A DNA stretch of 63,486 bases, counting the filler, from Rhabdomonas costata (Eukaryota): the NCBI GenBank assembly GCA_019059605.1. It is 57 parts of 57 records of this genome, joined end to end, with 100 filler letters (N's around TTAATTAATTAA, not from the genome) between each part and the next. Parts side by side here need not be neighbours in the genome. Positions count along the whole stretch, not along the records: positions 31,223 to 32,238 come from JAHMHO010033400.1; 56 more parts are not named here. One strand, written 5' to 3'. The translations under genes and the position numbers were made by a program. A model generated the notes under the pieces. That model ran no database searches and was not told the DNA's origin. It saw only the letters and a list, made by a program, of their open reading frames with translations. Shown here in pieces: positions 29,497 to 32,349 of the stretch. Positions within the stretch are counted from its first letter, which is position 1; each line of letters starts with the position of its first letter.

Positions 29497-31222
29497 GTAC
29501 GATGGCCGCCCATCCCGTCCACAATCCCTGTGTCGCCTTCACTGCTTCTGGCTGCAAATCGCATGGCGCAGCTCAAAGTCCCCTCCCAACTCCATGATGA
29601 TTACTTCCTTTTTTTCTTCCCTTTCACGGAGCAGTCACTGCTGGGTTTTTTAGCAATCCCTGCAAGCATGGTTTCTGATAAGACATTGCATTCACAATGA
29701 GGATGGGGGCGGGGTAATTGGGTGACGATCGCGTATCATCCGAAAGGATACACAGCACAGCAGCTCTGAGGGTACGCATCATATTGTCCTGCTTCACTTT
29801 AAAACTGCGAACTGCTATATTTTGCCCAAAGGTGACCTTTTCGGACTTCTTAGCGAAAAAACAGAGAGAAAATGAAAACTTTTATACAGATGGGATATCT
29901 TTTCCCCACTTTGCTTCTGTGGGTAATTGTCTCGCATGCTTCCTGATTGGATGCCCAAAATTCTCACTTTGATGAGAAAGGGACCAGATTGCCCCCCCCC
30001 CCCCACNNNNNNNNNNNNNNNNNNNNNNNNNNNNNNNNNNNNNNNNNNNNTTAATTAATTAANNNNNNNNNNNNNNNNNNNNNNNNNNNNNNNNNNNNNN
30101 NNNNNNGTTTTTTGGGTTAAAACCGATCATTCCTTCGCTTGCTTAGCATTTTTGCGTCTTTCTTGATTTCTGTGTCTGGTGTTGTCCACTCGAGTTGCCC
30201 TGGTTGGTTTTTCTCCATCGCTGCCTGCGCCTTGGCGCGCAAATAGCCGCTTGCCACTTTTTGCCCGTGCCACGCGCCCCCTTTTTATGCCATTCGCTTT
30301 GCCTCAGGCCGCTTACTTTTGTCCCCGTGCCCCACGACTGGTTTAACCAACTGCTTACTACCCAGGCTTACGTTTTTTTTTGCCCCTATGAAATTGCTTT
30401 ATGTTGCCTCCAATTATTTGCCTCCATTTGCAAGGTCGGCAACCCCGGCCGCTCCGCACCTTCACACCTACAATAATTCAATCGCTTTTGCACGGCAATC
30501 TTCTGTGAACTTCAGAGGCAAAACCTATTGAAATGAAAATTTGCACAAAATTCAGTACAAAGGCTCACCACATCCTCGAATTCATAAAAAATAAATTGGA
30601 AAATGTTCGCCATGTTAGGAACACCTAAGCAATAGTTTCTCACCCAATGAAACGTTGTCAGGAACGACACTTCAGAAGGGAGGGACCAGAAGATCACGAT
30701 GCCAGAGCGCTGGAACGGACGCCGAGAATGCAAATAAGTGATGAAATAAGGTTTAAAACGGTGTTAAAACTGGAGACGAGAAAGATGGTCTGGAATAATC
30801 GTCGTCAGGATTCAAGGAGAAGGGTACCAGGACCCATTGAAACCGTATGTGCGTAGACAGGCAGACGCAAATTATTTGAAGGAGAAATCGAGCGCGGTTT
30901 GGATTGGGTGAAGTGTGTGAAAGACGGCGTAGTTATCGGTGAAGACGCAAAAAAATGTTAGGCTGTGAAGTGCGGCCTGGCGCAGGCTGTGAAAAACTGC
31001 GCAAAGTTCAGCGTTTTGTTGCGAGGTGACCCATGTTGTGGTGGAGGTGGATGTTGCGAAGTAACGTGCCGGAAGGACGAAACAAGGAAACCGAATTCAC
31101 GGCTAGTGTAATCAACCAAAAANNNNNNNNNNNNNNNNNNNNNNNNNNNNNNNNNNNNNNNNNNNNTTAATTAATTAANNNNNNNNNNNNNNNNNNNNNN
31201 NNNNNNNNNNNNNNNNNNNNNN

Positions 31223-32075
31223 CATAAGTTGGTTAAGTTGGTTGGGCTGCTGTAGGGTTATGCGGGTAATGTGGTTGCTTGTTAGGGGTTGTCGTTGCTG
31301 ATTCGTTTGGAGTTGGTCTGTACGGGTTCTGGTTTTGTGCGTGGTGTCAAGGAGTGTTGAATATAGAGCGGTTGGATCTCGGCTCATGGTATCGTCATGC
31401 TCTTCTTGTTTGTGATGCCGGTTGCTATTGGTGGGTAGGGTAACTAGTTGCTTTCTTTGTTGTCCTTTGTTTTATTTGAAGATGCCTCGTATGAATGGTT
31501 TGTCGTTGGTGTTGCTGGTTGTGGCTGTGGTTACTGCGTTGTTTGTGGAGTGCGGTGTTGTTTGTGCGTCCTTTGTGCTCTAAATGAACTCTCTAGCCTC
31601 CTGGTTTCTCGTGATGGTGATGTGTTGTGTGTGGCTGCGGATTTGTCTGTGGTGTGCGTACATTGCCTTCGGGTTTGAGTGCCACAAACTAGCTGGCTAC
31701 GGTTCGGCGTGGTCGTCATCGTGGGTTGAGAAGTATTCCTGTGTATATTTGGTCCCTTATGGTCACTGTGTTCTTGTTGGTGGGTTCTCTTCCAGTGCTG
31801 GGTGTGCTTTCGTTGGGTGCTGTGTTCGGATTTGTTTGTTGCGTTGTGAGGTATGCCGGGTTTCTTGTTTGATGTGTCGATCTGTGATGGTGCCGCGGTT
31901 CTTCAGGCGTTCCTTCTACATGTGGTGCTTGTTTGGTGTTTGGTGTTTGGTCCTATGCACAGTCCTATGTGTTCCTAAGTTCTCGGATGTGAAGTTGCCG
32001 TTTGTGTCCATGGGGTTGTTGGGTTCGGTGTTGTTGTTGCCGTCTGCCTTCCTGGTCTTGCGTCTCCTCCCTGGT
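31223..32075 (+). pseudogene. cox1: Mitochondrial-type cytochrome c oxidase subunit 1, euglenid-like; degenerate and internally deleted copy using TAG at Tyr and TGA at Trp positions
   Basis: Cox1 motifs appear in the correct order across frames: HK..GLL*G, SLLIRLEL, VRGVKE, I*SGWISAHGIVMLFLFVMPVAIGG*GN*LL, MPRMNGLS, (TGA)TL*PP, SRDGD...DLSVVCVHCL, N*LAT, VYIWSLMVTVFLLVGSLPVLGV, VLSLGAVFG, FGPMH, VPKFSD...GLLGS. No introns; strongly T/G-rich and A-poor, unlike the nuclear exons. Confidence 0.95.
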
Positions 32076-32349
32076 GCTGCGTTGAATGTCTCGGGTCCTG
32101 TTGTGTCCGCAGCTGTGTCTCTGCGTTTGATTGCTGCTCCTTGCTATCCAGCTTTGCACTCCCAAGAATGTCTCCAGGTATTGCGCTCGTAGGTCCCTCG
32201 CGCGTGCATTATTGTGGTTGTTGTTAGTGTTAGTGTTANNNNNNNNNNNNNNNNNNNNNNNNNNNNNNNNNNNNNNNNNNNNTTAATTAATTAANNNNNN
32301 NNNNNNNNNNNNNNNNNNNNNNNNNNNNNNNNNNNNNNGGGTGTGGGGC

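What the first reader, a model, noticed from the sequence alone, without database searches (positions are those of the whole stretch)
31223..31806. Candidate non-standard mitochondrial genetic code in a euglenid: UAG=Tyr (with UGA=Trp)
Seen: in the Cox1-homologous frames, TAG occurs at 31253 (GLL*G), 31283 (C*GLSLLIRLEL), 31364 (I*SGW), 31436 and 31445 (GG*GN*LL), 31594 (TGA ACT CTC TAG CCT CCT = W-T-L-*-P-P) and 31690 (N*LAT). Knowledge: GWTxYPP has an essentially invariant Tyr, and GxLY and LYN are strongly conserved. In Euglena gracilis Cox1 as I recall it (GILYG, LGYII, TIYNNW, GFYGNYL, GWTLYPP, VNYIT; needs verifying), all seven positions are Tyr. Ordinary TAT is used at only two aligned Tyr sites (31259, 31744). 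Inference: random decay should not turn seven Tyr codons specifically into TAG, and A-to-I editing would give Trp, which does not fit YPP. Reassignment to Tyr is therefore the simplest reading, leaving UAA as the probable sole stop. UAG=Tyr is known in calcareous-sponge (Clathrina) mitochondria, but I know of no euglenozoan case. Studied euglenozoan mitochondria import their tRNAs, so this predicts a nucleus-encoded tRNA-Tyr(CUA), or an anticodon edited or modified after import, plus a release factor that no longer reads UAG.
Basis: partly seen in the sequence, partly recalled or inferred. Interest (0 to 1): 0.93.

Follow-up and report, generated by a model that had tools for sequence, protein, structure and literature searches.

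The report
Broken cox1 copy showing TAG=tyrosine code
This 1-kb contig is a decayed copy of a euglenid mitochondrial cox1 gene that still spells tyrosine with TAG, a genetic-code change that is real but was already published for a euglenid in 2021.

Summary
All seven TAGs sit where stated, each in a Cox1-homologous frame. All seven align to Tyr in the closest TAG-free relative, P0001.

Five environmental contigs (L001-L005) carry intact, single-frame cox1 genes of the same clade, with 5-24 in-frame TAGs at Tyr columns. Against the nearest one, L002, six TAGs are shared. TAG and TAT interchange in both directions at three sites. Two in-frame TGAs match TGG/Trp.

So UAG=Tyr with UGA=Trp is well supported, but it is not new. 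Soukal et al. 2021 (PMC8219788) report exactly this for the mitochondrion of the euglenid Rhabdomonas costata.

The copy in the window is not a working gene:
- It needs at least four frame changes.
- It lacks about 507 nt encoding the catalytic core.
- It has lost 14 of 79 invariant residues.

It is best read as one of the gene remnants typical of euglenid mitochondrial DNA. "UAA as sole stop" finds no support in the relatives.

One environmental relative, L004, appears in addition to read AGA as Ser and TGA as Cys. My searches found this in no paper.

The parts
31223..32238 (+). Stand-alone 1016-bp contig, G+T-rich over its whole length (72 % G+T), flanked by artificial linkers at 31123-31222 and 32239-32338
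31226..31468 (+). cox1 remnant, piece 1 (about residues 4-82 of full-length relatives). Carries a 9-nt tandem duplication at 31226-31243 and a 6-nt in-frame deletion near 31290
   Evidence: 65 of 76 residues identical to L002
31479..31547 (+). cox1 remnant, piece 2 (MPRMNGLS...), in another frame. The conserved GSSEMV motif just upstream is destroyed
31549..31602 (+). cox1 remnant, piece 3 (FVRPLCSKWTLYPP), in the third frame, after a 4-nt insertion at about 31544
31604..31663 (+). cox1 remnant, piece 4 (VSRDGD...VCVH), after a 2-nt deletion at about 31602
31663..31806 (+). cox1 remnant, piece 5 (LPSGLSATNYLATV...GSLPVLGV), after a 10-nt deletion at about 31664
31804..31807 (+). Junction of an internal deletion of about 507 nt (cox1 nt about 600 to 1107 in L002 numbering, residues about 201-369). 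This region includes the invariant HPEVY, WAHHM and most of the HFH motif region
   Evidence: invariant residues listed
31804..32135 (+). C-terminal cox1 remnant (about residues 378-482 of P0001), 66 % nt identity to L002, spread over three frames with further small indels
31253..31255 (+). In-frame TAG at a Tyr column (GLLYG); TAG in L002
31283..31285 (+). In-frame TAG at a Tyr column; TAG in L002, Y in P0001 and P0003, L or T in more distant references
31364..31366 (+). In-frame TAG at a Tyr column (W-I-Y-S-G-W); TAG in L002
31436..31438 (+). In-frame TAG at a Tyr column (GGYGN); TAT in L002
31445..31447 (+). In-frame TAG at a Tyr column (GNYLL); TAG in L002
31594..31596 (+). In-frame TAG at the invariant Tyr of WTLYPP; TAG in L002
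31690..31692 (+). In-frame TAG at a Tyr column (TNYLAT); TAG in L002
31259..31261 (+). TAT (Tyr) where L002 has TAG
31744..31746 (+). TAT (Tyr) where L002 has TAG
31358..31360 (+). In-frame TGA where L002 has TGG (Trp)
31585..31587 (+). In-frame TGA at the invariant Trp of GWTLYPP; TGG in L002
31847..31849 (+). TGA in the C-terminal remnant (ALWG) where L002 has TGG
   Evidence: (alignment)

Best explanation
The contig is a non-functional remnant of the mitochondrial cox1 gene of a heterotrophic-type euglenid. It is closest to the uncultured lineage represented by the environmental contigs L002 and L003.

In that lineage the mitochondrial ribosome reads UAG as tyrosine and UGA as tryptophan. 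When the remnant was copied from a working cox1 it inherited TAG at its Tyr sites. Afterwards it picked up small indels that shift the frame at least four times in the N-terminal part. It also lost about 507 nt encoding the catalytic core, and it accumulated replacements at otherwise invariant residues.

Such pseudogenes and gene fragments are a known feature of the recombination-prone, fragmented mitochondrial DNA of Euglena gracilis.

Shown here: the homology, the broken state, and the TAG/Tyr and TGA/Trp correspondence, including intact relatives.

Inferred: that the remnant lies in mitochondrial rather than nuclear DNA, that an intact cox1 exists elsewhere in the same organism, and how UAG is decoded (which tRNA and which release factor).
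For: Code:
- 7 of 7 in-frame TAGs align to Tyr of P0001, where 12 of 180 aligned codons are Tyr columns.
- Against L002, 6 sites are TAG/TAG, 1 is TAG (contig)/TAT and 2 are TAT (contig)/TAG. That is synonymous-type interchange.
- Intact single-frame cox1 genes in environmental relatives hold many in-frame TAGs. L001 has 17 TAG against 4 TAT/TAC. L002 (identical to L003) has 21 against 2. L004 has 24 against 2. L005 has 5 against 9.
- In these genes the TAG columns show Y in 189 of 295 non-gap reference cells and F in 43.
- At columns where at least 75 % of 8 references agree, TAG meets Y in 10 of 10, 12 of 12, 13 of 13 and 2 of 2 cases.
- TGA in the contig meets TGG of L002 at 31358 and 31585 and at 31847. 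The contig has no TGA at a Cys codon of L002.
- Published: PMC8219788 reports the same code for R. costata and no sign of editing (passages).

Broken state:
- blastn to L002 gives 75 % identity over cox1 nt 13-599, then jumps to nt about 1107.
- Frameshifting indels of +2/-4, +4, -2 and -10 nt are present. They are not T-only.
- 14 of 79 invariant columns are changed or missing, against 2 in L002 and 4 in L001 over the same span.
- The contig's end branch is 0.26, against 0 to 0.09 for its neighbours.
- The differences to L002 still follow codon positions: 0.177/0.083/0.375, against 0.19/0.055/0.42 for L001 versus L002. Most of the divergence therefore arose while the gene was functional, and decay is later and modest.

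Mitochondrial setting:
- The base make-up matches the intact relatives L002 and L003 (A .12, C .14, G .37, T .37) and none of the other 56 contigs.
- E. gracilis mtDNA carries 'pseudogenes and short gene fragments' beside full-length copies (PMC4700960, passages).
Against: - The indels and the large deletion could therefore be artefacts of amplification or assembly. The deletion joins two similar V-L-x-(L)-G stretches, a place where template switching is easy.
- The code inference rests on a single gene, cox1. No second mitochondrial gene was found in the window or on L001-L005.
- No RNA or peptide evidence was obtainable here. Supplementary Fig. S3 and Table S7 of PMC8219788, which could bear on this very kind of contig, are closed.
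- Full-length relatives without any in-frame stop and with Y at these sites (P0001, P0011, P0016) nest inside the TAG-using clade. I could not see their DNA, so I cannot say whether they use TAT/TAC or derive from RNA.
- The contig's G+C content (50 %) is also close to that of the neighbouring, presumably nuclear, contigs. A nuclear copy is therefore not excluded.
Confidence: 0.75

Rival explanations
1. The contig is the organism's functional cox1, and the frameshifts and the 507-nt gap are errors of amplification, sequencing or assembly.
For: The in-frame pieces are 155 of 180 residues identical to L002. The differences follow codon positions. The deletion lies between two similar short motifs. 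The window consists of very short contigs.
Against: Beyond the indels, point replacements hit invariant residues: N51S, P80S, G122K, T131S, S154P and G158S. The GSSEM motif is rewritten. The C-terminal part is only 66 % identical, with about ten further indels. The end branch is long.
Confidence: 0.1
2. The contig is a nuclear copy of mitochondrial DNA that decayed in the nucleus, keeping TAG codons from its mitochondrial source.
For: The gene is broken. The contig's G+C content (50 %) is like that of the neighbouring contigs.
Against: The extreme G+T skew runs over the whole contig and equals that of the intact relatives. No flanking sequence of ordinary make-up is visible. Euglenid mtDNA itself is known to hold such remnants.
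Confidence: 0.1
3. RNA editing, rather than a changed code, repairs the message. UAG would be turned into UAU or UAC, or U insertion/deletion would restore the frames, as in kinetoplastid cryptogenes.
For: Euglenozoan relatives edit mitochondrial RNA. The strand is G+T-rich. One 2-nt gap is a missing TT. Stop-free relatives with Y nest among TAG users.
Against: The indels include G and C (a 10-nt GTGTTGGGTC-type gap and a TGTG insertion), so U-only editing cannot repair them. Intact relatives need no frame repair. No G-to-U/C editing is known to me (recalled). PMC8219788 and PMC4700960 report no editing in R. costata and E. gracilis.
Confidence: 0.03
4. The TAGs are chance products of pseudogene decay and say nothing about the code.
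For: The copy is decayed. The number of TAG trinucleotides (7 in 584 nt) is about what base composition predicts. That estimate is my arithmetic from the frequencies.
Against: All 7 are in the coding frame at Tyr columns. Six are shared with an intact gene, and the seventh meets TAT.
Confidence: 0.01

Closest known systems
Mitochondrial code of Rhabdomonas costata (Soukal et al. 2021, PMC8219788; passages read)
   Same: A euglenid in which UAG at Tyr positions and UGA=Trp were inferred from cox1, cox2, cob and nad4. The mitochondrial genome is fragmentary and was recovered as short contigs. No editing was seen.
   Different: The paper describes complete genes obtained after manual extension. 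The window holds a broken, internally deleted copy. I did not establish whether the window is that species. The contig is nearer to the environmental L002/L003 (155 of 180 residues) than to P0001/P0011 (140 of 180).
Clathrina clathrus (calcareous sponge) mitochondrial code, as cited in PMC8219788
   Same: UAG=Tyr together with UGA=Trp.
   Different: It is an animal, it also has CGN=Gly, and it encodes its own (edited) tRNAs. This is known to me only from the citation and from recall.
Labyrinthulea mitochondrial codes (Zihala et al. 2020, as cited in PMC8219788)
   Same: UAG=Tyr in some members.
   Different: They are stramenopiles and an independent origin. I saw the citation only.
Pseudogenes and gene fragments of Euglena gracilis mitochondrial DNA (PMC4700960; passages read)
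   Same: Short linear mtDNA pieces carrying non-functional fragments of protein genes beside full-length copies. The cause is attributed to ongoing recombination.
   Different: E. gracilis uses the ordinary TGA=Trp code without TAG=Tyr. That its mtDNA is A+T-rich rather than G+T-rich is my recollection.
Kinetoplastid cryptogenes (U-insertion/deletion editing)
   Same: A euglenozoan, G+T-rich, frameshifted mitochondrial gene.
   Different: The indels here are not U-only, and intact relatives exist in a single frame. It is not a member.

Membership tests
Cytochrome c oxidase subunit 1 (Pfam PF00115) | Significant sequence similarity to the family | tested here: met
   tblastn with P0001 gives 129 bits, E 1e-40. 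The PDB chain 8iuf_C1 matches at E 1e-19. Single pieces score 26.1 and 21.5 bits, below Pfam's whole-protein cut-off of 34.8.
Cytochrome c oxidase subunit 1 (functional gene) | One continuous reading frame | tested here: not met
   At least four frame changes in 31226-31806, and more in 31804-32135.
Cytochrome c oxidase subunit 1 (functional gene) | Presence of the core carrying the invariant HPEVY and WAHHM motifs (metal and haem ligands, by recall) | tested here: not met
   Residues about 201-369 are deleted. The invariant residues in that span are listed.
UAG=Tyr / UGA=Trp mitochondrial code (as published for R. costata) | In-frame TAG at conserved Tyr columns | tested here: met
   7 of 7 against P0001. 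In intact relatives, 10 of 10, 12 of 12, 13 of 13 and 2 of 2 at conserved columns.
UAG=Tyr / UGA=Trp mitochondrial code | TAG interchanges with TAT/TAC between relatives | tested here: met
   Three interchanges between the contig and L002.
UAG=Tyr / UGA=Trp mitochondrial code | In-frame TGA at Trp columns | tested here: met
   31358 and 31585 meet TGG/W, and so does 31847. There are only three sites, and they lie in a decayed copy.
UAG=Tyr / UGA=Trp mitochondrial code | The same signal in other mitochondrial genes of the same genome | not testable with these tools
   No other mitochondrial gene is in the window and no genome is held. The paper reports the signal for cox2, cob and nad4 of R. 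costata.
UAG=Tyr / UGA=Trp mitochondrial code | UAG persists in mRNA; Tyr in the protein; a cognate tRNA and a release factor blind to UAG | not testable with these tools
No tRNA genes were found.
Kinetoplastid-type U-indel cryptogene | The frame is restored by inserting or deleting U only | tested here: not met
   The gaps relative to L002 contain G and C.
Nuclear copy of mitochondrial DNA | Flanked by nuclear sequence | tested here: inconclusive
   The contig ends 100 nt past the cox1 homology. The skew is uniform and no nuclear flank is seen.

The most novel reading that the evidence does not exclude
The contig belongs to an unstudied clade of heterotrophic euglenids whose mitochondrial code is still changing. 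UAG=Tyr is shared across the clade, and UGA is Trp in the window's lineage.

In the uncultured relative L004, UGA appears to be Cys and AGA appears to be Ser, while AGG stays Arg and UGG stays Trp. The TGN and AGN boxes would then have the 3+1 shape of the Ile/Met box. AAA, CAA and GAA are not used at all.

L005 has TAA at two Tyr columns. The nearest relatives show no standard stop codon after cox1.

My two literature searches turned up no report of UGA=Cys in any mitochondrion, nor of this set of changes in Euglenozoa.
Probability: 0.5. Interest if true: 0.8.

Novelty: already known. Interest (0 to 1): 0.33.

Why it matters
For the window itself, very little. It confirms, from a decayed gene copy, a code change that is already in print.

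Its value is as a pointer. The same search shows that UAG=Tyr is spread through a whole clade of uncultured euglenids in environmental data. Usage ranges from 5 to 24 TAG codons per cox1.

At least one member seems to have gone further, with AGA=Ser and UGA=Cys. Euglenozoan mitochondria are thought to import all their tRNAs. Each such change therefore has to be made by altering imported tRNAs or release factors. That makes this clade a natural series for studying how codes change without organellar tRNA genes.

Tried and rejected
- Whole-genome access: none is held.
RNA persistence of UAG and the reality of the indels therefore stay untested.
- Earlier notes of this scan: nothing by place, by words or by sequence.
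- Other mitochondrial genes in the window: tblastn with a Cox1-Cob read-through protein (P0016) and a Cob (P0014) hit only this contig. blastn of L001-L005 against the window hit only this contig. tblastx gave only noise of 34 bits or less elsewhere.
- Other genes on L001-L005: none found with the same queries.
- tRNA genes: 0 in the window and 0 in L001-L005.
- Genome-contig scan: the 80 kept loci carry bacterial record titles (48 % identity or less). No euglenid-type sequence turned up.
- U-indel editing as the cause of the frameshifts: rejected, because the gaps contain G and C.
- Repeats in the contig: two weak direct pairs and no inverted repeats. Nothing explanatory.
- Literature: one paper holds Rhabdomonas + UAG + tyrosine + mitochondri. 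PMC8130358 mentions only TGA=Trp for euglenozoans. Searches for UGA/Cys reassignment in mitochondria and a look into PMC12574857 gave no such report.
- Organism identity of the other contigs: one Pfam scan of 10 of the 47 long open frames gave only an alpha/beta-hydrolase piece and an Hsp70 piece. I did not pursue it.

Full report
WHAT THE WINDOW IS

The window is a chain of 57 contigs of about 1016 bp. They are joined by artificial linkers of 44 N, TTAATTAATTAA and 44 N. The finding lies in one contig, 31223-32238.

That contig has a base make-up unlike the other 56. It is A 10, C 17, G 32, T 40 %, so 72 % G+T. No whole genome is held for the window. I leave its source unnamed.

Translation in the three forward frames shows Cox1-like stretches in all three. 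Two of the pieces match Pfam COX1 (E 4.9e-6 and 1.3e-4).

The best solved-structure match is chain 8iuf_C1 at E 1e-19. The next best is at 1.5e-9. A paper on the Euglena gracilis respiratory chain holds that entry code (search listing only).

TAG occurs at exactly the seven stated positions. These are all the TAG trinucleotides in 31223-31806.

The 8iuf alignments show Y opposite the TAGs of GLLYG, IYSGW, GGYGNYLL and TNYLAT. At 31283 there is a gap next to the site.

Against the closest TAG-free relative, P0001 (495 aa), 7 of 7 TAGs meet Tyr. Only 12 of the 180 aligned codons are Tyr columns. By my arithmetic that is about 6e-9 by chance. More distant references give 6 of 7, 5 of 7, 6 of 7 and 4 of 6.

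INTACT RELATIVES SHOW THE SAME CODE

A scan of metagenome contigs with an alignment of nine euglenid-type Cox1 proteins (A1) kept 80 loci. Five of them, L001-L005, are 68-79 % identical to P0001. The other 75 are at most 47 % identical.

Each of the five carries cox1 in a single frame, with in-frame TAG:

| locus | TAG | TAT+TAC |
|---|---|---|
| L001 | 17 | 4 |
| L002 (identical to L003) | 21 | 2 |
| L004 | 24 | 2 |
| L005 | 5 | 9 |

Opposite these TAGs, five reference proteins show Y in 189 of 295 non-gap cells and F in 43. At columns where at least 75 % of eight references agree, TAG meets Y in 10 of 10, 12 of 12, 13 of 13 and 2 of 2 cases.

L002 and L003 have the same unusual base make-up as the window contig (A .12, C .14, G .37, T .37). 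In a maximum-likelihood tree they are its sister group, with support 99/97.

Codon by codon against L002, over the N-terminal part:
- Six of the contig's TAGs meet TAG.
- The TAG at 31436 meets TAT.
- The contig's TAT at 31259 and at 31744 meet TAG.
- One TAG of L002 meets AAT.

Interchange in both directions is what synonymous codons do. The contig's in-frame TGAs at 31358 and 31585 meet TGG. A third TGA, at 31847, also meets TGG. No TGA meets a Cys codon of L002.

THIS IS ALREADY IN PRINT

Soukal et al. 2021 (PMC8219788; I read the passages returned) report the following for Rhabdomonas costata. Translating its cox1, cox2, cob and nad4 with table 4 left many UAG codons at positions that are Tyr in other euglenozoans. 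They saw no indication of RNA editing. They conclude UGA=Trp plus UAG=Tyr, and they cite Clathrina and labyrinthulids as precedents.

A search for Rhabdomonas + UAG + tyrosine + mitochondri found only that paper. They may list contigs of the kind seen here.

THE COPY IN THE WINDOW IS BROKEN

blastn to L002 gives 75 % identity over cox1 nt 13-599. It then jumps to nt about 1107 at 66 % identity. About 507 nt are therefore missing, covering residues about 201-369. That span holds the invariant HPEVY and WAHHM motifs.

Within the N-terminal part there are several changes:
- a 9-nt tandem duplication;
- a 6-nt in-frame deletion;
- frameshifting indels of +2/-4, +4, -2 and -10 nt.

The gaps include G and C. 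U-insertion/deletion editing cannot repair them. The C-terminal part has about ten more small indels.

Read piece by piece, the N-terminal part is still 155 of 180 residues identical to L002. However, 14 of 79 invariant columns are changed or missing. Over the same span the count is 2 in L002 and 4 in L001. The contig's end branch in the tree is 0.26, against 0 to 0.09 for its neighbours.

Differences to L002 fall at codon positions 1, 2 and 3 at rates of 0.177, 0.083 and 0.375. Between the two intact genes L001 and L002 the rates are 0.19, 0.055 and 0.42. Most of the divergence is therefore ordinary divergence between species, accumulated under selection. A moderate layer of later decay lies on top.

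E. gracilis mitochondrial DNA is described as short linear pieces carrying 'pseudogenes and short gene fragments' beside full-length copies (PMC4700960, passages). The contig fits that picture.

WHAT REMAINS OPEN

I could not lay reads. Misassembly therefore cannot be excluded, and neither can a nuclear location.

The window holds no other mitochondrial gene and no tRNA gene.

L002 and L003 have no in-frame TAA from the end of cox1 to the contig end. In L001 the first one comes 172 codons after the match. TAA is rarer than base composition predicts in L002 and L003: 3 seen against 17.9 expected, and 1 against 13.5.

One result sits awkwardly. Stop-free full-length proteins with Y at these sites (P0001, P0011 and the Cox1-Cob read-through P0016) nest inside the TAG-using clade. 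I could not see their DNA.

SEEN IN PASSING, IN RELATIVES RATHER THAN THE WINDOW

L004 is strongly A-ending: 270 of 468 third positions are A. Its codons behave as follows.

| codon | invariant columns | against P0001 |
|---|---|---|
| AGA | 14 of 14 Ser | S at 25 of 32 |
| AGG | 9 of 9 Arg | R at 14 of 15 |
| TGG | 4 of 4 Trp | not counted here |
| TGA | the 1 Cys column | C at 8 of 10 |

L004 also uses no AAA, CAA or GAA at all.

Other relatives give smaller hints:
- L005 has TGA at the same Cys column as L004. It also has two in-frame TAAs at Tyr columns where its relatives have TAG.
- The only TGA of L001 meets Cys in L002, L004 and P0001.
- Short open-frame fragments in the protein clusters stop just before a Tyr (P0010, P0012, P0013) or just before a Cys (P0015, P0025, P0027) of their full-length relatives.

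Two literature searches showed no report of UGA=Cys in mitochondria. This rests on one gene per lineage and needs more genes.

VERDICT

The code reading is supported but already published for a euglenid. The object itself is a decayed cox1 remnant.

Interest in the window is low. The clade it points to is worth a dedicated look.

Noticed in passing
L004:1-1404 (metagenome contig, cox1): The apparent code is TAG=Tyr plus AGA=Ser and TGA=Cys, with AGG=Arg and TGG=Trp kept. AGA sits at 14 of 14 invariant Ser columns and TGA meets Cys of P0001 at 8 of 10 sites. AAA, CAA and GAA are unused although 270 of 468 third positions are A. My searches found no paper reporting this.
   Followed up: partly
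L005:2-1177 (metagenome contig, cox1): There are two in-frame TAAs (nt 224 and 392) at Tyr columns where relatives have TAG, and one TGA at a Cys column shared with L004. The gene otherwise keeps 158 of 161 invariant residues. TAA may also be Tyr here.
   Followed up: partly
L001:860-2800; L002:1733-3339; L003:629-2228: No standard stop codon follows cox1. L002 and L003 have no in-frame TAA to the contig end, and the first TAA of L001 is 172 codons after the match end. TAA is depleted in L002 and L003. How translation ends is unknown.
   Followed up: partly
Proteins P0010, P0012, P0013, P0015, P0025, P0027 (cluster members): Short open-frame fragments of euglenid-type Cox1 from several public sources end just before a Tyr (3 cases) or a Cys (3 cases) of full-length relatives. 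This is as expected if TAG and TGA are sense codons that were called as stops.
   Followed up: partly
Protein P0016 (1127 aa): A single open frame runs from Cox1 straight into cytochrome b and beyond without any stop. It comes from a relative that nests in the TAG-using clade. I could not see its DNA.
   Followed up: no
window:2181-3077 (-) and window:59157-60017 (-): Among 10 of the 47 long open frames scanned, one holds an alpha/beta-hydrolase fold piece (E 1.8e-17) and one an Hsp70 piece (E 2.4e-10). Both are presumably fragments of nuclear genes.
   Followed up: no
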